Shown: piece after piece, positions 2,873 to 52,947 of the stretch
Numbering within the stretch: position 1 is the first letter of the stretch
Layout: each line of letters starts with the position of its first letter
Source of the DNA: the human T2T-CHM13v2.0 reference genome, Homo sapiens
DNA length: 64,000 bases
Strand: one strand, 5' to 3'
NCBI RefSeq assembly: GCF_009914755.1
Contig: NC_060929.1
Program-made: the position numbers and the translations under genes
Notes under the pieces: generated by a model
Told to the model about the DNA's origin: nothing
Database searches by the model: none
The model's input: the letters and a program-made list of their open reading frames with translations, nothing else

Positions 2873-3620
<748 letters not shown>

Positions 3621-11929: not shown

Positions 11930-12790
11930 ACATCCGCACGTGCAAATGTCTGAGACCAGAGGCTGCAAGCCTCCCTGTCGCTCTTAGGGCTTCGGTAGCC
12001 ACATTGCCACAGCTCTCCACGCCCTCAGGTAACGCCCCTCCGCAGGCCGAGACGTCGGCACGTACACTGTCAGGTCTTCCCGCTTTCCGTCGCTTCCTGT
12101 TCCGTCTTGGTCCCGCCTGCCGCTGGCGCCGTTGTTTCCGGCTCAACTGGGGAGCTGCTGGAGCTCTTCTGGCCTCTGGTTTTCCGACTGCTTATCCGAC
12201 GCTCCTCCCTCTGTCTCTGTAGCTGGAGAAGGTAGTTTCCAGGAAAGTTTTCCGGTTTGCAGGCCGCGCACATCGGGCAGGGGCCATCCTCGGTCCCCTT
12301 GCTCGTTGCTCGCAGCCCCGTTCGGCTACAAGTGAGTTTCAGGGCGTCATGGCCAGGGGCCACCGCGGCCAGCCGGGTGTGAGGCTGCCTTTCGCTGCCC
12401 GCGCGCTCCAGTGGTCTCTGGGTCCGCCGGCGTCCGTTTCGGCCTGAACGCAGCCCCTCCGCGGCGACGAGCAGTCTCGCGCCGGAGCTCATGGCCTCGG
12501 AGGCGCCGTCCCCGCCGCGGTCGCCGCCGCCGCCCACCTCCCCCGAGCCTGAGCTGGCCCAGCTAAGGCGGAAGGTGGAGAAGTTGGAACGTGAACTGCG
12601 GAGCTGCAAGCGGCAGGTGCGGGAGATCGAGAAGCTGCTGCATCACACAGAACGGCTGTACCAGAACGCAGAAAGCAACAACCAGGAGCTCCGCACGCAG
12701 GTGCGCGGTCCTCCTCAGCCCCGCGCCCCATCCAGCCCAGGCGAGGCCTTCGAAGCCCGTGATAGCCTCGGAAGGGGTCCCTGGCAGGGG
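11930..12790 (+). promoter_or_regulatory. AGGF1: CpG-island promoter / 5' UTR of AGGF1
   Basis: Abrupt CpG-rich, GC-rich stretch; clustered TTCCG/TTCCGG (ETS-type) motifs at about 12075-12260; CACGTG E-box near 11937; no TATA box. Confidence 0.85.
12491..12700 (+). CDS. AGGF1: AGGF1 coding exon 1 (MASEAPSPP...ELRTQ, N-terminal coiled coil)
   Basis: ATG 12491; donor CAG|GTGCGC at 12700/12701; 210 nt; recognised N-terminus. Confidence 0.97.
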
Positions 12791-13335
12791 CTCAGAACTA
12801 CTGTAGAGTACTTAAAGTAAATAAGTAGAAGCTCAGCGCAGTTACAATTCCAAGTACCTTAGGAGCAAACCTGAGTTCAGGTTACTTGATTTAAATCAAT
12901 GTCTCGCGGCTGGCGTGAATTGAACTTAAGTACTGTGGCTACATTGTCTTCATTCTCACTTGACCTAACATCCCATTGGCAGTAGGCGCATTTACTGTAG
13001 ATCACATTTGAGTTTATTAAAATGCTGGACTTGAGTCAGAATCCCATCTCTGCTATTCACTGGGTGTGTGAACTTATATACCGAGTCTCAGTTCCCCATT
13101 AAATGAGAATGATAGCTCACAGTAGTAAAGGTGAAGTAAAACAAACAATTTTACAAACTTTTGAATGCTATACCTGTTTAAGGTTGCTCTTCTGGGCGTT
13201 TATCATCTTCAGCTTTCTTGTGTAAGTAGGGACGATATATAACTGCTTTTGTTGGAGACGTTAAGCAGCTTATTTCGTTTCCAAGATGGTAGGGGCAAAT
13301 GTTAATACTTAAACTGTCACATTAAAAACAACCTT

Positions 13336-13666
<331 letters not shown>

Positions 13667-14011
13667 CTACCTTGTTGGCAGGCCCTCTCTGCCAACAGAT
13701 TATTTCCACATAGTAACTAGTTTCAATTTGACCGTTGTCTAGTCCTTCATAATTTATTGGTGGTTTCCTAAAACCAGTATATAGGCTGAACACTGAAACG
13801 TCATCAGACTTCTTTGTTTTGTTACCAAATGGACTATGAAAATAACTGTTGAGTTGCAATGACTTTGTATGACCATTACATGGAGTTCCTGACATGACAT
13901 TATTGGAAAGTTTTTGTTTAGTCAATTTAAACACCTACGGTGTGTAATAACTATGCTAGGAAAATACAAATATGGTAAAAAAAAAAAAAAAAAAAAAAAA
14001 CAGGGAGAGGT

Positions 14012-14345
<334 letters not shown>

Positions 14346-14480
14346 TTACATGACAGCCTTTTGAAAAGCTCCTTTATAATTCTAAATTGTTGAAGTACTG
14401 CTTGCGTTAGAGATTCTAAAAGAAAACGTTTTTTGCTAATCTTCAGAGAGCCAGCATTTTGGTGTTACTGTTAATTTGAT

Positions 14481-14779
14481 AAATCAGACTAAATGATGGG
14501 ACTTTGTGAACAGATCCTTTATTTCTTACAGAAAAGAATGTTTTTATGCTAATATTTTGAGAGGTCAGCAATTCTCCCTAAAGAATTAGAAAATTTAAGA
14601 GCTATCAATTCCCATTCATGTTATCTAATATCATTCAATGTTCACGTGGATTTAGTTATTAAATGTTAATGCCTCTTATAAGCTTTAATACACTTTAAAA
14701 AAATAGTAGTTCTGTGACTAAACTGCAGCAGAAGCGAACAGAAGGTAATTGCCTGAGAGGATCATCTGTCCTCCACATG
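14481..14779 (+). repeat. Arm 1 of an approximately 300-nt inverted duplication
   Basis: Aligns end to end with the reverse complement of 15618-15929. Confidence 0.9.
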
Positions 14780-15194
14780 CCTCCATTTTAGTCCAATATT
14801 AAAAATTTAATCTCATAGAAAGTCTTGACTCTACTTTGAATAGTGATAACTCCTTACTCTCCTAGTCAGCCTCCCTTGGTTGGGGAGAGGGTGGATTCGA
14901 TTAACTGTCATTCCAAATTACTGAATGTGTTTTATTTGGAGCAGTTAAAAAGTTTTGCTTGAGAATGATAACTGGAGAACCATAATATGTATAGGGTTTG
15001 TACAAGACCCCAAAATAGCCTTGTGCAAATTACTTTGTCTTGTCTGATATTTTATGTGTAAAATTGGGGTTAGGACAACGAATATTTCAGGTGGTTTTGT
15101 GAATTAATGAGATGTTATCTAAAGCATCAAGTATAGTGCCCAGCATGTAGTAGATACTAAGTAATCTAATTCATAGTGATAGGGACAGTAGCCA

Positions 15195-15350
15195 GAGCCA
15201 GGATTTAGGGCAAGGCAATCAGGCTCCTAGGGCGAGGAATTTAATGGGGCACTAATTCCCAGCGATGAACTCTGTACTTGCATGAATCAGAGGAGCGCCT
15301 CAGATTTTTCACGATCAGTGTCTTGCTTCCCTCACTGTAGTTCCTGCCCT
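15195..15350. mobile_element. MER96-like palindromic hAT MITE
   Basis: cagagccaggatttagggcaaggcaa ... ttgcttccctcactgtagttcctgccct imperfect terminal inverted repeats. Confidence 0.55.
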
Positions 15351-15617
15351 AGTATTAGCAACAGATCAGTTTTATCACCTTTCTCTGTTTAAGCTTTATG
15401 TATCATTAAATAAATATTTAAAAGCTTGTTTTTTAGTTGGTTTCTTGTGTGTAGTAGACATTATCTCACATTGAGGTCCTCTCAGGCTGAGGTGTATTGA
15501 CTGAGGCAGCGTATTGACCGAGGCAGCATGTTACTTGCTTTTGGGCACTTCCACACACTTGTTTCTCTCTGTCCTATGTAGTAGCATCCTTTTAAGGGTA
15601 TTTTAGTGTGTGAAGTA

Positions 15618-15929
15618 CATGGAGGACAGATGCCCCTCTCAGGCCGTCACCTTCCCTGTTCTCTTCTGCTACAGTTACTTAATTATAGGACTACTGTTTA
15701 ATGAAAAAATGTATTAAAGCTTGTAAGTGGCATTAACATATTCAGGTGGATAGTTAATTCCCAGTGGAGAATACCAAATGAGTATTAGATAATCCAGTAG
15801 GGATGAGAATTTGTAAATTTTGAATTTTTGAATTCTTTAGAACTGACTTTAAAATGTTAACATAAAAGCATTCTTATTTGTTAGAAATAAAGGACCTTGT
15901 TCACAAAGTCTCATTATTTAGTTCGATTT
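15618..15929 (-). repeat. Arm 2 of an approximately 300-nt inverted duplication
   Basis: For example ggaggacagatg...ctctcaggc and agaaataaagga...tgttcacaaagtc are reverse complements of arm-1 segments. Confidence 0.9.
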
Positions 15930-16143
15930 TTGGAGGAGATATTTGGACATTTAGTAAGAGAGATTAGGAATAAAAATGCCTTTTAAATGTATAAAGTAAA
16001 ATAATAATTTTAGCTTTTCTGAAAGGGAAACTTGCTGCTCTTGACATTTCTCTAAAACAATTATTTGTAACGGTAGGAGACTGGTATATATATTATTAGA
16101 TTGTTACATGATTTCTTTTTCCTAAAGCCTTGTTTTCTCTCAG

Positions 16144-16246
16144 GTGGAAGAACTCAGTAAAATACTCCAACGTGGGAGAAATGAAGATAATAAAAAGTCT
16201 GATGTAGAAGTACAAACAGAGAACCATGCTCCTTGGTCAATCTCAG
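16144..16246 (+). CDS. AGGF1: AGGF1 exon 2 (VEELSKILQRG...WSIS)
   Basis: ttttctctcAG acceptor, CAG|GTATTT donor, 103 nt, frame continuous. Confidence 0.95.
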
Positions 16247-17266
16247 GTATTTAGCTTATAGTGAGGATATGCTAACACTGTTACATTCAAATCATGCTAA
16301 TGTTGCGTTTTCTTTTAATTTAAAATAAACAAAGATCAAGGTAAATGAGAATTGTTAATACTGTTGACGTCTCTCCATATGATAATGGTATTTTCGGATA
16401 ATCAATTTGTTCTTCTGGAGGAAAAAGTAGAAATGTATTGTCATTCCTGTGATTTCTATAATGTTGCTAATGTTTTCAGTGGCACACTCACTGAGTAATT
16501 TTTGGCAGGCAGTTAGCCATCTACTTCCATATCTGCCTTCCTTGTGACCAGGGGCATTTGTTTTCTTGTTGATGTGTTCTAATTAGAATTATGTATAGTA
16601 TCAGTCTCTCACCCTTGTGGGAATGGTGAGCCCACCACCATGGCCTTATGAATGGCATTATGTTATAAGGCAAAATAGCTGAGATACTGAGTTTTAATAT
16701 ATATGTGTCACAAGAAGAAATCATCTTTCCTATTAAGTTTTGCCTTGCTTCAGTCAGGACATAATTTTTGGCTAAATTGCTAAACATAGCAATAGTGCTA
16801 ACTTTTCTTATCTGCATGATACGTTTTAAAAAGTCTGCATGGGGAGAGAAATTTGCCAAAAAATAAATCAATCCCTAATTCCTTGCCTTTATTTCATTAT
16901 CAGTTGATAAGCAACAGTATTAAGGTATCCAGTTAGAAGTTAAGAGTTAAGTTTTTTAAATAGAACACAACCTATCTACAGATTTTTATTTTACTCTTGC
17001 TGTAGAAAATGTAACCAACTTACCTTTTTTTTTTCTTTTTAACTGACAGCTAGGGTCTTGAAGGAGACATTAGAATCAAAGATACACACTTCTGCAGATT
17101 TATCTGTGCCATCTGTTTTAATCTTTTAAAATTTGTACAGTTGTAAAAATCATGATTTATTTGAAGTATGTGCTTTTTGTGTTTAAATGCCAGTGTTTTG
17201 TAGTTAAGTCCTTTTTATATACATTATTCTAATATGATACGATTTCACTTCATTTTTTTGCTACAG

Positions 17267-21834: not shown

Positions 21835-22134
<300 letters not shown>

Positions 22135-22498
22135 AGGAAAATATTAAAAAAAAAAAAAAAATCCATTGCTGACAACTGTGGAGTGAGATAACATATTTAT
22201 TAGGATTAATAGTTTAAATGGCCTGCAAGACAATGGTTAAGAAAGCGATAGTTACATTTAATTTAAAAAAGTATTATGTAGGCTTTCAGATGGTACTTGT
22301 AAAGACTAAGGGGAACCCCAAAAATGCTTATGATGATGCAATGTTAAATTGAAAGAAGGAAAATATAAAAAGTTATCAGTGTTCTTTATTTCTACTCTCT
22401 AAACAGGTAAGTTTGGTGGTTTATAGGTTATAAAGGAGGCTTGTTTGTTTTATTGATATTTTATGAACTGTGGCAACTATTTGATATCTTACTCTTGA

Positions 22499-23001: not shown

Positions 23002-23395
<394 letters not shown>

Positions 23396-26892: not shown

Positions 26893-27434
26893 TTACTTTT
26901 TCTAAGGCTGAAATGATAGATTTGACCATTGTATAACACGGTGACTATTGTTAATAACAATGTGTTGTATTATTGCAAACTGCTGAGAGCAAATTTTAAG
27001 TTTCTTACCACAGAAAAATAAGTATTTCAGGTAATGTACATGTTAATTAGCTCAATTTAACCACTGTACATTGTGTACATATTTCAAAACTTCATGTTGT
27101 ACATGATAAAAATACATCATTTTTGTTAATTAAAAAATATTTATTATAAGGCATATCAACTATAAATGTACAATAAATAATAAAAGACTTATGCCAGGCA
27201 AGTTAAAATTTTGGAATAAGATAGTCACAGTTAATTTGTACTTTAAACTTTTATGTATTATCAAGCTGAATCTGAAGTACTAAATTTTAGCAAAACTACA
27301 ATTTTGCTACATATTGAGTACATTTGGATCTTTAAATTCATGTCATAAGTAAAGCTAATTCTGTATTTTATTTGTGTTGACTAGCTAATTGATTACTAGT
27401 TTAAAAAGAAAATTTAGAATAGGTATTCTTTAGG

Positions 27435-32299: not shown

Positions 32300-33620
<1,321 letters not shown>

Positions 33621-35799: not shown

Positions 35800-37182
35800 G
35801 TATGTGAAACAGATTAAATGTGGCTGTGATAACATTTCTCTTTCATTACCTAAATGTTCTAAAAAACATCAGTCAGCTACTGGCTACATGTCTAATTGAT
35901 ACGATACTGCATTGAGAGATATTTTATACAAAGCTATCAGTCTTGTATCCAGTTGATCTAATAATAGATTGAGATATATTTCATAAATATTACCAAATGA
36001 GACTAAGAAATAACATATATTTGGAAGTTGAGACCTAGGCTAATAGATTATAATTGTAGTTGATTTTTCTGTGTAATAATTTAGCTTCATGATATGTAGC
36101 ATTGGTCTGCTTTTTGACCAGGAAAGAGATTGATAAGCTCTCTTTCTGCTAATCCAGTTTAGTAGGCTTTTGAGGCAGACTGTAGTGGTAGTCAAATGTA
36201 CTTAAGAGCAGTTGTAATTGAAAATTGGTAAGAGAGTAGATTTTAAGTGTTTTTACCATACACAAAAAATGATAAGTACATGAAGTAGTAATGGGTATGT
36301 TAATGAGGTTGATTTAGCCAGTTAACAGTGTATACCTACATCAAAAATCATGTTGTATACCATATATACAATTTTTATCAATTAAAATAATTTAAAAAGT
36401 AATTATGACTTAAGTAATAATTTAATAAAGACTGGTTTCCTTTTGACAGGTATGTATTGATGTAAAAAAAGTCATCCACAGTTGAACTCTGTCATATAAT
36501 ATTAACGTAGGAAATAATAAGCCAAGGCATGAAGGGTTATTGATTGATACGTTTTCTGTCCTATTGATAGCTCGTGCTGTATATTGTCTATGTACCATTA
36601 TTCTTTATTATAATAGCACTGTAGGATATTACTGTTTTGCTTTCAGCCCAGCCATCGAAAGCTCTTAAAATTTAAATAGATGCTTTGAACTAGTAAGAGG
36701 TCATCTTTTTTGACATAAATTTTCCCCCTAAATGCCAAGTTTGCATGTTCATTGTTTATTTTTTGTTTTCTGATACTAATTTGAAAATGAATATGTTGCA
36801 TTACACAATAACATGAATTTTGGTTTCTCTGGCTTTTATTTTGCATATGGCTATGTTCCTTTGCAAAATTTACTTAATATTTCTGCATTTGAGATTCTAT
36901 TACAATAATCATATTGAAAAATCGAGATGTTCATTGTTCATTTTGGTAGCTATAAGATTCCTATTATCTGTGGTTTTTGCTTTACTTCTCAATTAGGTTT
37001 AGTTACCAAAATGCTGAAAGGACATCATCACAACCCAATATCCTTTATATTAATGTTTATTTCAACTTCTGGTTAATTGGAATGGGTTATATTAGTTTTT
37101 TATTAATTAAATAACATTAGTTTTAATTTTGTACAAAATCAGATTTAGTGGCTTTTTTTTAACCAAACTTTTTTTCTTTCAG

Positions 37183-37699: not shown

Positions 37700-39890
37700 C
37701 AACATAGTTGGAGAACTAATATGACCTGATGTAAAGACTTATTATAATTAAACTGCAGTGATTAAGGTAGTATCATATTGGCATAAAGATAAATGGATGG
37801 AACAAAATAATAGTCCAGAAGTAGATCCATGTATATGTGTGGACAATTAATTTTTGATAAAGGTGTGATGGCAGTTTGGTGGAGAAAGAGTGGTCTTTTT
37901 TTTTTTTTTTTTTTTTGAGACAGAGTCTTACTCTGTCACCCAGGCTGGAGTGCAGTGGCACAATCTCAGCTCACTGCTACCTCTGTCTCCTGGGTTCAAA
38001 TGATTGTCCTGCCTCAGCCTGACAAGCAGCTGTGATTGCAGGGGCCCGCCACCACGCCCCGCTAATTTTTGTATTTTTAGTAGAGACAAGGTTCACAGCG
38101 TTGGCCAGGCTGGTCTTGAACTCCTGACCTCAGGTGATCTGCCCACCTTCGCCTCCCAAAGTGCTGGGATTACAGGTGCGAGCCACTGTGCCCGGCCAAG
38201 AGTGGTCTTTTACAACAAATGGTGGTAGAATAATTGGATGGCCTTACCAAAAAAAAAAACACAGACAAAAAGAATGTTGATCCATACCTTGAACCATCTA
38301 TAAAAATGATCCAAAAGTGGATCATAGATATAAAAGTAAAACCTAAAACTTTAAAACTTCTAGAAACTTTTTTTTTAAAGGCAAAGATTCTAACACCAAA
38401 AGCACAATCCTTAAGAACAAATTGATAATCTGTATTTCTTCAAAATTAAAAATTAATGTTTTTCTAAAGACACTATTAAGAGACTGAAAAGACAAGCCAC
38501 AGCTGGAGAAAATATTTGCAAATCATGTATCTGGTCAAAGACTTCTATATCTAGAATATACAAAAAACTTTCAAAACTTAATAATAAGAAAACAACTCAG
38601 TTAAAAAATGGGCCAAAGATTTGAATAGATGCTTCACCAAAGAAGATATGCTGATGGCAAATAAACATCTGAAAAAATGTTCAGTATTATCAGTCTTTAA
38701 GGAAATGCAAATTAAAACCACAATGAGATACCACTACACATCTATTAGAATGCCTAAAATTTTCAAAACTGACTATAACAGGTATTGGAAGGGTTGTGGA
38801 GGAACTAGAAATCTCATACACTGCTGGTGGGAATGTAAAATGGTGCGGTTGCTTTGGTAGTTTCTTAAAAAGTTAAACATACACCTATTTTACAAGTTAG
38901 CCATTCTACTCTGAGATATTTACCCAAGGTAAATGCAACCATATGTGCATAAAAAGACCAGTAAACAAATGTTCATTGCATTTTTTTTTTGAATAACCAA
39001 AAACTGAGAAAAACTCAAATGTCTGTCATATATGGATAAGCAAACTATGGTGTTATCTGTATGGTGAAAATACTACTTAGCAATAAAAAAGCAGGAACTA
39101 GTAATATAGGCCACAACCTGGATGAATCTCAAAATAGTTATGTTGAGTGAAGCCAGATAAAACACGTGTATGTGCTTCCACTTGTGGAACAATTTCACTA
39201 TTCACTGGTTTCCAACTTGTCTGAGGTCTGTGAGACGGAACACACTCTCATACAAGTTACATGAAGCAAACTTACTACTTACAAATAGTGAGCAAGAGAT
39301 GACAGAAGCCTAGGATTTATTGGGAAACCAACCCCCAAAGCTCAGAAAGCTGCCTTCTGGGTGAATGGAGTCTCAACTGTGTGTGCCCTACTTGCACAGC
39401 AGTTGAGCAACCCTGGAAAGCATCGCACCTTGGGTTATGTACCTCAGGGTTATTTGACGCACTGGGCTAAAATGTTGAAGGACATCCTGTTTCCAGGTGG
39501 GGACTGGAACAGAGCCTGGACTGTTTTAGCCAATCCCTCCTTACCTCAGGATGTTGCATTCCCAGCACATTCTGGTTGGTGTTGAGAACTACAAACAAGA
39601 AAGTGGGAAGAACTGTTCTGCACCATTTATGTAAACTTCTAGGAAAGCAAACTAATGTATTGTGACAGAAGGAAGATGAGTGATTGCTTAGACACAAGGG
39701 AGGAATGCTACACAGGGAAGGTCTGGAGAGTTGGATTACAAAGAGAGACAAGGACACTTTTGGGAGAGATGGATATGTTTATTATCTTGCTTATGGTGAT
39801 AGTTTCATAGGTCCATAAATCCCAAAAGCATCTCATTGTACACTAAGTATGTATGATTTATTTATATTAATTATACCTCAATAAAGTTGT
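37700..39890 (+). mobile_element. L1MB/MC-type fragment containing an antisense Alu (37896-38197) and an ERVL-type LTR (about 39183-39620)
   Basis: L1 motifs ggaaatgcaaattaaaaccacaatgagataccactacac and ttatacctcaataaag 3' end; Alu TSD AAGAGTGGTCTTTT. Confidence 0.8.
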
Positions 39891-52608: not shown

Positions 52609-52947
52609 CAGTCATGTATCACTTAACGATGGGGATATGTTCTGAGAAATGCCTTGGTGGTTATTTCGTCACTGTACAAACATCGTAGAGGTACTCACAC
52701 AAACCAAGATGGTACAGCCTACTGTACACCTAGGCTGTGTGGTATACTGATTGCTCCTAGGCTACAAACCTGTACAGCATTCTGTGGTCTGAATACTGTA
52801 GGCAATTCTAACACAGTTAAGTATTCGTATATCAAAACATACCTAAACATAGAAAAGGTACAGTAAAAATACAGTATGGTAATCTTACAGGACCACCATT
52901 GTATGTGTGGTATGTCATAGACTGAAATGTTATGTGGTGCGTGACTC
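52609..52947. mobile_element. Tigger3-like MITE
   Basis: TA+CAGTCATGTATCACTTAACGATGGGGATATGTTCTGAGAAATGC start; ...GTGACT end. Confidence 0.8.

What the first reader, a model, noticed from the sequence alone, without database searches (positions are those of the whole stretch)
14481..15929. Non-Alu ~300-nt inverted duplication in AGGF1 intron 1 able to form a long pre-mRNA duplex
Seen: 14481-14779 aligns end to end with the reverse complement of 15618-15929, at roughly 70-75% identity by eye. Example: ACTAAATGATGGGACTTTGTGAACA vs ACTAAATAATGAGACTTTGTGAACA; AATGTTAATGCCTCTTATAAGCTTTAATAC vs TATGTTAATGCCACTTACAAGCTTTAATAC. The spacer is about 840 nt and arm 2 ends about 215 nt before the exon 2 acceptor. 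I do not recognise the arms as any interspersed repeat, and they lack terminal inverted repeats or A-tails. In my manual alignment most transitions keep pairing as G-U wobble in the sense RNA (arm-1 G vs A, arm-1 T vs C) rather than A-C. Inference: an old, possibly selected long-range RNA duplex (splicing control or ADAR substrate). Caveat: transcription-associated A>G mutational asymmetry would give the same wobble bias without selection.
Basis: partly seen in the sequence, partly recalled or inferred. Interest (0 to 1): 0.8.

Follow-up and report, generated by a model that had tools for sequence, protein, structure and literature searches.

The report
Old single-locus inverted duplication in AGGF1 intron
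Two ~300-base stretches in the first intron of the human AGGF1 gene are old, reversed copies of each other found nowhere else in the genome; they could fold into a long imperfect RNA hairpin, but nothing in the sequence shows that this hairpin has been selected.

Summary
Window 14481-14779 aligns end to end with the reverse complement of 15618-15929. 234 of 288 aligned bases are identical (81%; 72% counting 35 gap columns), about 47 SD above shuffles.

The arms are not copies of an interspersed repeat. Whole-genome searches with each arm, and a 30-mer scan allowing 3 mismatches, found only the two arms. Two old dispersed repeats from the same window gave 1322 and 1885 candidates in the same search.

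The sense RNA is predicted to pair 244 of 299 arm-1 bases with arm 2, even when the whole intron is folded.

The G-U wobble bias is real (23 of 34 transitions) but not special. Forty-two inverted Alu pairs in the same gene show 58-60% wobble, and 37 of 42 are also more stable in the sense strand.

Best reading: a neutral relic of a local inverted duplication, tens of millions of years old. It is plausibly a weak incidental ADAR substrate. Conservation, editing and duplex reads could not be tested here. Interest is low.

The parts
14481..14779 (+). Arm 1 of the inverted duplication (299 nt, 67% A+T), in AGGF1 intron 1, 1780 nt downstream of the exon 1 donor
   Evidence: aligns end to end with the reverse complement of arm 2. 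It has no other copy in the genome.
14780..15617 (+). Spacer or loop (838 nt). It is unique in the genome at the sensitivity of the search and contains a 17-nt tandem duplication at 15494-15527
   Evidence: only itself found; tandem repeat; 9 of 12 stop-to-stop frames of at least 40 aa scanned; no Pfam match above cut-off; no Rfam match.
15618..15929 (+). Arm 2 (312 nt), the reverse complement of arm 1. It ends 214 nt before the exon 2 acceptor (16144)
   Evidence: It contains a short 8-nt low-complexity array at 15807-15834.
12701..16143 (+). AGGF1 intron 1, the transcript context in which the hairpin would form. Its only two Alus (13335-13628, 13977-14290) are both in sense orientation, so the arms are the only long inverted pair inside this intron
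   Evidence: Hub gene table for the exon ends. (Alu orientations). (in the whole-intron MFE, 244 of 299 arm-1 bases pair with arm 2).

Best explanation
This is a relic of one local inverted duplication. A ~300-nt piece of AGGF1 intron 1 was copied in reverse orientation about 0.84 kb away, tens of millions of years ago, and both copies have since drifted neutrally. The mechanism is inferred: a replication template switch or fold-back repair. Because both arms lie in one intron of an expressed gene, the pre-mRNA can fold into a long, bulged, A+U-rich hairpin that loops out 838 nt. Such a hairpin is the kind of structure ADAR edits promiscuously, so low-level incidental editing is plausible. There is no sign that the pairing is maintained by selection or that it controls splicing. 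The excess of G-U over A-C mismatches in the sense RNA comes from the strand-asymmetric mutation pattern of transcribed DNA. Shown here: the repeat, its uniqueness in the genome, its divergence, the predicted fold, and the background level of wobble bias. Inferred: the duplication mechanism, the age in years, the editing and the neutrality.
For: (1) The repeat is real and far beyond chance.

(2) It is confined to one locus. Genome-wide DNA searches with arm 1 and arm 2 gave 2 candidates each, self and partner, even at E <= 10 for arm 2. A 30-mer from the best-conserved block, allowing 3 or fewer mismatches, occurs only at the two arms, with 0 hits for the reversed control. The same search tool returned 1322 and 1885 candidates for two old dispersed repeats of the window. 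For each control, 40 candidates were scored, at 76-89% identity apart from self. Copies as similar as the arms are to each other would therefore have been seen.

(3) I see no target-site duplication at the outer ends, no A-tail (sequence) and no coding remnant. There is no Rfam family in the arms or spacer: all 10 weak hits lie in the upstream Alus at 13337-14291.

(4) Age. Non-CpG K2P is 0.195 between the arms, against a median of 0.121 for 190 Alu-Alu pairs in the window. Only 15% of the Alu pairs are as diverged.

(5) Fold. In the MFE of both the 1449-nt element and the whole 3443-nt intron, 244 of 299 arm-1 bases pair with arm 2. The arm-arm cofold is -284.3 kcal/mol, against -121.8 +/- 4.6 with arm 2 shuffled. 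The longest uninterrupted helix is 26 bp.

(6) Neutrality. Wobble-type transitions are 23 of 34 (0.68), against 0.578 and 0.605 in 42 inverted Alu pairs of the same gene. Of those pairs, 5 of 42 (all sites) and 12 of 42 (non-CpG) reach 0.676, and binomial P is 0.16-0.26. The sense duplex is more stable than the antisense one in 37 of 42 Alu pairs, and 15 of 42 match or exceed the arms' difference of -0.10 kcal/mol/nt. Passages of bioRxiv 10.1101/117325 state that A>G is commoner on the non-transcribed strand and yields an excess of G and T there, citing Green et al. 2003. That is the direction that makes G-U wobbles.
Against: No other mammalian genome, conservation track, editing database or duplex-ligation data could be consulted, so neutrality rests on the absence of a signal in one genome. 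The wobble fraction (0.68) lies above the Alu background (0.58-0.60), though not significantly so with 34 sites. Identity is uneven along the arms: 82-88% in the outer 80 columns, 47-72% in the middle and 70-80% at the inner end. That could reflect local constraint or gene conversion as well as chance. A very small or very old repeat family cannot be excluded without Dfam. My estimate is fewer than roughly 75 copies at 75% identity or less, derived from the 30-mer test. The search tool also states that its repeat counts are lower bounds and that very common words are skipped.
Confidence: 0.7

Rival explanations
1. The 1449-nt unit is a single decayed DNA transposon with ~300-nt terminal inverted repeats (as in Mutator-like or some hAT-derived non-autonomous elements). 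The arms are its TIRs and the spacer is its interior.
For: The geometry fits: two terminal inverted arms with sharp outer ends and a non-repeated interior. The divergence is in the range of old mammalian transposon relics (inference).
Against: Other copies of such a family should be about as similar to the arms as the arms are to each other, yet none exists in the genome, while the search finds over 1000 candidates for two control repeats. I see no target-site duplication of 2-9 nt at the outer ends (sequence). No transposase remnant turned up: 9 of 12 frames were scanned, and only 3 sub-threshold chance-level hits appeared at E 0.058-0.088.
Confidence: 0.12
2. The duplex is a selected long-range RNA structure. 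It would shorten the effective intron 1, present or hide elements near the exon 2 acceptor, or serve as a dedicated ADAR or dsRNA-binding-protein site.
For: The predicted pairing is robust in the context of the whole intron (244 of 299 bases). The arms are the only long inverted pair inside intron 1. Arm 2 ends 214 nt from the acceptor. The sense strand pairs better than the antisense strand by 30 kcal/mol.
Against: The sense-strand advantage and the wobble bias are at the background level of 42 Alu pairs in the same gene. Twelve indel events and 54 mismatches break the helix into 29 segments, the longest 26 bp. At -0.95 kcal/mol/nt it is weaker than every one of the 42 Alu pairs (-1.18 to -1.79). 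RefSeq lists one AGGF1 transcript, with exon 2 constitutive (hub table). No paper connecting AGGF1 with editing or an intronic inverted repeat was found. AGGF1 does not occur in the 3 held supplementary files of PMC8052449, which are not the full catalogue.
Confidence: 0.08
3. The arms are two independent insertions of one known, very old or very rare interspersed repeat that happen to lie head to head.
For: An unmasked stretch can still be a repeat (hub note). No repeat library was available here, and the search tool says its repeat counts are lower bounds.
Against: Two independent copies that are 81% identical imply a family whose members are about 80% alike, and those would be detected as the controls were. 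None was. Both arms share the same ends over about 300 nt and lie 838 nt apart, which is unlikely for a family with next to no other copies.
Confidence: 0.05

Closest known systems
Inverted Alu pairs (IRAlus) in introns and UTRs, the main human ADAR substrates
   Same: Arms are ~300 nt, in one transcript, about 1 kb apart, and 70-86% alike. Both are predicted to form a long imperfect intramolecular duplex. The sense-strand wobble excess is the same.
   Different: This is not a SINE. It exists at a single locus in the genome. It is A+U-rich and much weaker per nucleotide, at -0.95 against a mean of -1.55 kcal/mol/nt. Its longest helix is 26 bp, against a median of 32.5. The arms arose by one duplication, not two insertions.
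Long inverted repeats / long hairpin RNA loci as catalogued in LIRBase (PMC8728187; passages read)
   Same: It has a left arm, a loop and a right arm, and can be transcribed into a long hairpin.
   Different: LIRBase keeps only arms longer than 400 nt with at least 80% matches and at most 10% indels. These arms are 299 and 312 nt with 35 of 323 gap columns, so the locus falls outside that catalogue by definition. There is no evidence of siRNA production here.
Pairs of conserved complementary regions (PCCRs) and other long-range pre-mRNA structures that regulate splicing (PMC8052449; listing abstract and supplement search only)
   Same: It is an intronic, long-range (about 1.1-1.4 kb) complementarity within one intron, near an acceptor.
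   Different: PCCRs are defined by evolutionary conservation and are short helices. Here conservation is untested, and the complementarity is explained by a duplication rather than by convergent maintenance.
Non-autonomous DNA transposons with long terminal inverted repeats
   Same: Terminal inverted arms flank a unique interior.
   Different: There are no other copies, no target-site duplication seen and no transposase remnant.

Membership tests
Interspersed repeat family (independent copies) | Many dispersed copies in the genome at similar divergence | tested here: not met
   Searches found only the two arms. Positive controls gave 1322 and 1885 candidates.
Interspersed repeat family (independent copies) | Match to a curated consensus (Dfam/Repbase) | not testable with these tools
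   No repeat library is held. Rfam and Pfam gave nothing in the arms.
DNA transposon with long TIRs | Terminal inverted repeats | tested here: met
   The arms themselves. This feature does not discriminate from a local inverted duplication.
DNA transposon with long TIRs | Target-site duplication flanking the outer ends | tested here: not met
   By eye on the sequence, no direct repeat of 2-9 nt lies at 14480/15930 or within a few bases. Age (about 0.1 substitutions per site per arm) weakens this test.
DNA transposon with long TIRs | Other family members, or a transposase remnant in the interior | tested here: not met
Long inverted repeat (LIRBase definition) | Arms over 400 nt, at least 80% matches, at most 10% indels | tested here: not met
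   Arms are 299 and 312 nt. 81% of aligned bases match. 35 of 323 columns are gaps. Criteria are from passages of PMC8728187.
ADAR-edited intramolecular dsRNA (IRAlu-like) | Long intramolecular duplex within one transcript | tested here: met
   In silico only: 244 of 299 arm-1 bases pair with arm 2 in the MFE of the element and of the whole intron.
ADAR-edited intramolecular dsRNA (IRAlu-like) | Clustered A-to-I sites in RNA | not testable with these tools
   No editing database or RNA-seq is held. Literature searches found nothing on AGGF1 intron editing.
Conserved long-range pre-mRNA structure (PCCR-type) | Conservation of both sides across species, with compensatory changes | not testable with these tools
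   No other vertebrate genome is held. AGGF1 is absent from the 3 held supplementary files of PMC8052449, which are not the full catalogue.
Conserved long-range pre-mRNA structure (PCCR-type) | Pairing-preserving substitution bias above the local mutational background | tested here: not met
   0.68 against 0.58-0.60 in 42 Alu pairs, P = 0.16-0.26.

The most novel reading that the evidence does not exclude
A unique, non-transposon intronic hairpin, born by a local inverted duplication in an early primate or earlier ancestor, has been co-opted. It would be bound or edited by ADAR or other dsRNA-binding proteins and would tune removal of AGGF1 intron 1 or use of the exon 2 acceptor 214 nt downstream. 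The better-preserved outer and inner thirds of the arms would be the functional helices.
Probability: 0.06. Interest if true: 0.45.

Novelty: new member of a known kind. Interest (0 to 1): 0.2.

Why it matters
If the neutral reading is right, this is an ordinary by-product of genome evolution. Its main use is as a worked caution: a G-U-preserving substitution bias in an intronic inverted repeat is what transcription-associated mutation asymmetry produces anyway, so it is not evidence of selection for RNA pairing. The Alu-pair control used here gives a simple in-gene baseline for that test. If the duplex were functional, it would be a rare non-Alu, single-locus long hairpin acting on a constitutive intron of an angiogenesis gene. 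Nothing found here points that way.

Tried and rejected
(1) A sequence-only covariance model of the two arms (R1) was built to search the genome more sensitively. The genome search does not accept models for this genome, so it went unused.

(3) Rfam at a permissive threshold over 13000-16500 gave 10 weak hits, all in the two upstream Alus and none in the arms or spacer.

(4) Of the 12 stop-to-stop frames of at least 40 aa overlapping 14400-16000, I scanned 9 against Pfam. The three dropped were 14288-14464, 15951-16103 and 15964-16092, which lie outside the element. The scan gave 3 sub-threshold hits (E 0.058-0.088, below the curated cut-offs), taken as chance.

(5) By eye, part of the spacer (about 15150-15260) reminded me of an old SINE. 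This is recall only. The genome search with the whole spacer found only itself, so I make no claim.

(6) Literature. The searches 'AGGF1 / intron 1 / inverted repeat' and 'AGGF1 / ADAR / A-to-I / dsRNA' found no paper on this structure. Passages of PMC3606216 only place ZBED3 downstream of AGGF1.

Those hold long-range structure and RIC-seq lists and could bear on experimental support for the duplex.

(8) A link to the nearby hAT-derived gene ZBED3 was considered and dropped. It lies about 38 kb away, and nothing connects it to the arms.

Full report
OBSERVATION

The sequence and the repeat finder show five collinear inverted blocks between 14481-14775 and 15620-15929. They are 32-47 nt long and 76-91% complementary.

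A global alignment of 14481-14779 with the reverse complement of 15618-15929 has 323 columns (MAFFT agrees):
- 234 matches, 54 mismatches (34 transitions, 20 transversions) and 35 gap columns in 12 gap events.
- That is 81% identity over aligned bases, or 72% with gaps counted.
- The local alignment score is 279, against 29.9 +/- 5.3 (maximum 53) for 300 shuffles of arm 2.

BLAST puts the pair at E = 2.3e-40 within the window and about 4e-38 against the whole 3.1-Gb genome. The spacer is 838 nt, and arm 2 ends 214 nt before exon 2 (hub table).

IS IT AN INTERSPERSED REPEAT?

No repeat library was available, so I asked the genome itself.
- Arm 1 and arm 2, searched as DNA against the window's own assembly, each gave exactly two candidates: self and partner. 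This held even at E <= 10 for arm 2.
- The spacer gave only itself.
- A 30-mer from the best-conserved block, scanned with up to 3 mismatches, occurs at the two arms only. The partner has 2 mismatches, and the reversed-pattern control gave none.

The tool warns that it is a candidate-based search, so I ran positive controls. A self-BLAST of the window shows three dispersed, old-looking pairs at 68-76% identity. Two of these were used as queries:
- 26964-27143 returned 1322 candidates, 40 scored, at 76-84% identity apart from self.
- 3353-3464 returned 1885 candidates, 40 scored, at 82-89% identity.

The search therefore does see families whose members are as alike as the two arms are, and it sees none for the arms.

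Within the 64-kb window the arms match only each other, while about 20 Alus match one another. I see no target-site duplication at the outer ends and no A-tail. No Rfam family matches the arms or spacer: all 10 permissive hits lie in the two upstream Alus. There is no coding remnant either. Nine of 12 frames were scanned, giving only three chance-level sub-threshold Pfam hits.

The simplest reading is one local inverted duplication. A single transposon with 300-nt terminal repeats would need to be the only surviving copy of its family.

AGE

K2P distance between the arms is 0.22, or 0.195 at non-CpG sites. The 190 pairwise comparisons of the window's 20 Alus have a non-CpG median of 0.121 (quartiles 0.102-0.160, maximum 0.266), and 15% of those pairs are as diverged as the arms.

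The duplication is thus older than most Alu insertions here and comparable with the oldest. With recalled neutral rates of about 1-2.2e-9 per site per year, 0.10-0.11 substitutions per arm corresponds to roughly 50-100 million years. This is an inference. Gene conversion between the arms would make the true age greater.

CAN THE RNA FOLD?

- In the minimum-free-energy structure of the 1449-nt element, 244 of 299 arm-1 bases pair with arm 2, in 29 uninterrupted helices. The longest is 26 bp (14487-14512 with 15898-15923).
- The same 244 of 299 pair when the whole 3443-nt intron is folded.
- Arm-arm cofolding gives -284.3 kcal/mol, against -121.8 +/- 4.6 with arm 2 shuffled (30 shuffles).

Thermodynamically the hairpin is credible. 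Both Alus in intron 1 are in sense orientation, so the hairpin has no Alu competitor within the intron.

It is a weak duplex by the standard of known ADAR substrates. It scores -0.95 kcal/mol per nucleotide. The 42 inverted Alu pairs within AGGF1 range from -1.18 to -1.79 (mean -1.55), and their longest helices have a median of 32.5 bp.

IS THE WOBBLE BIAS A SIGN OF SELECTION?

Of 34 transitions, 23 leave a G-U pair in the sense RNA and 11 leave A-C. This gives P = 0.058 against 50:50. The sense duplex is 30 kcal/mol more stable than the antisense one.

The proper null is not 50:50. Passages of bioRxiv 10.1101/117325 state, citing Green et al. 2003, that A>G mutations are commoner on the non-transcribed strand. 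This produces an excess of G and T there, which is the direction that turns A-U and G-C pairs into G-U.

I measured the local baseline with the 7 sense and 6 antisense Alus (each at least 240 nt) inside AGGF1. These are 42 inverted pairs that nobody supposes to be selected for pairing with each other.
- Wobble-type transitions are 908 against 664 (0.578) at all sites, and 411 against 268 (0.605) outside CpG contexts.
- Five of 42 pairs (all sites) and 12 of 42 (non-CpG) reach the arms' 0.676.
- Against these baselines the arms give P = 0.16 and 0.25. Like for like at non-CpG sites, they give 21 of 31, P = 0.26.
- The sense duplex is the more stable one in 37 of 42 Alu pairs, and 15 of 42 equal or exceed the arms' sense advantage of 0.10 kcal/mol per nucleotide.

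Identity is uneven along the arms: 82-88% in the outer part, 47-72% in the middle and 70-80% at the inner end. With one genome this cannot be told apart from chance, alignment uncertainty around indels, or old gene conversion.

WHAT IT MOST LIKELY IS AND DOES

I estimate 0.7 for a neutral relic of a local inverted duplication. The mechanism is inferred: template switching or fold-back repair. The age of the junctions leaves no microhomology to read. Its transcript can form a long, bulged, A+U-rich hairpin that loops out 838 nt of intron 1. Like inverted Alus it may be edited incidentally by ADAR, but nothing indicates a selected role.

The rivals, with my probabilities, are:
- a one-off long-TIR transposon relic (0.12);
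- a selected splicing or ADAR structure (0.08);
- two independent copies of a rare or very old known repeat (0.05).

COMPARISON WITH KNOWN KINDS

The locus works like an inverted Alu pair but is not a SINE and exists at a single locus. It fits the general notion of a long inverted repeat or hairpin RNA locus. It fails the LIRBase thresholds (arms over 400 nt, at most 10% indels; passages of PMC8728187). It cannot be filed as a conserved long-range structure of the PCCR type, because conservation is untested and the one testable criterion, a pairing-preserving bias above background, is not met.

Two searches for AGGF1 with inverted-repeat or editing terms found no description of this locus. AGGF1 is absent from the three held supplementary files of PMC8052449, which are not the full catalogue.

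LIMITS

- No other vertebrate genome, no Dfam, no editing or RNA-RNA ligation data.

VERDICT

This is an ordinary instance of a known kind. Interest 0.2.

Noticed in passing
window 21850-22135 (-) and 23013-23291 (+): An inverted Alu pair only 878 nt apart in AGGF1 intron 5. It has the strongest predicted duplex feature of the gene's 42 pairs: a 70-bp uninterrupted helix and -464 kcal/mol. It is a far better dsRNA/ADAR candidate than the finding under review.
   Followed up: partly
window 15494-15527: A 17-nt tandem duplication (2.0 copies, 94% matches) inside the spacer.
   Followed up: no
window 13335-13628 and 13977-14290: Two sense-oriented Alus just upstream of arm 1. They give sub-threshold Rfam hits to SRP RNA and to the Alu-derived families mir-1268 and mir-3135. 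Intron 1 has no antisense Alu.
   Followed up: partly
window 26964-27143 / 36211-36394; 3353-3464 / 52693-52799; 33135-33281 / 38700-38842: Three dispersed non-Alu pairs at 68-76% identity. The first two belong to families with more than 1000 candidate copies in the genome. They are old interspersed repeats of unnamed family, and two were used here as positive controls.
   Followed up: partly
AGGF1 transcription unit, window 12128-46904: A general strand asymmetry. Across 42 inverted Alu pairs, transitions that leave G-U in the sense RNA outnumber those that leave A-C by 908 to 664. The sense duplex is more stable than the antisense one in 37 of 42 pairs.
   Followed up: yes
window 15150-15260 (spacer): By eye this stretch resembles the core of an old SINE. 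This is recall only. The genome search with the spacer returned only itself, so it is unverified.
   Followed up: partly
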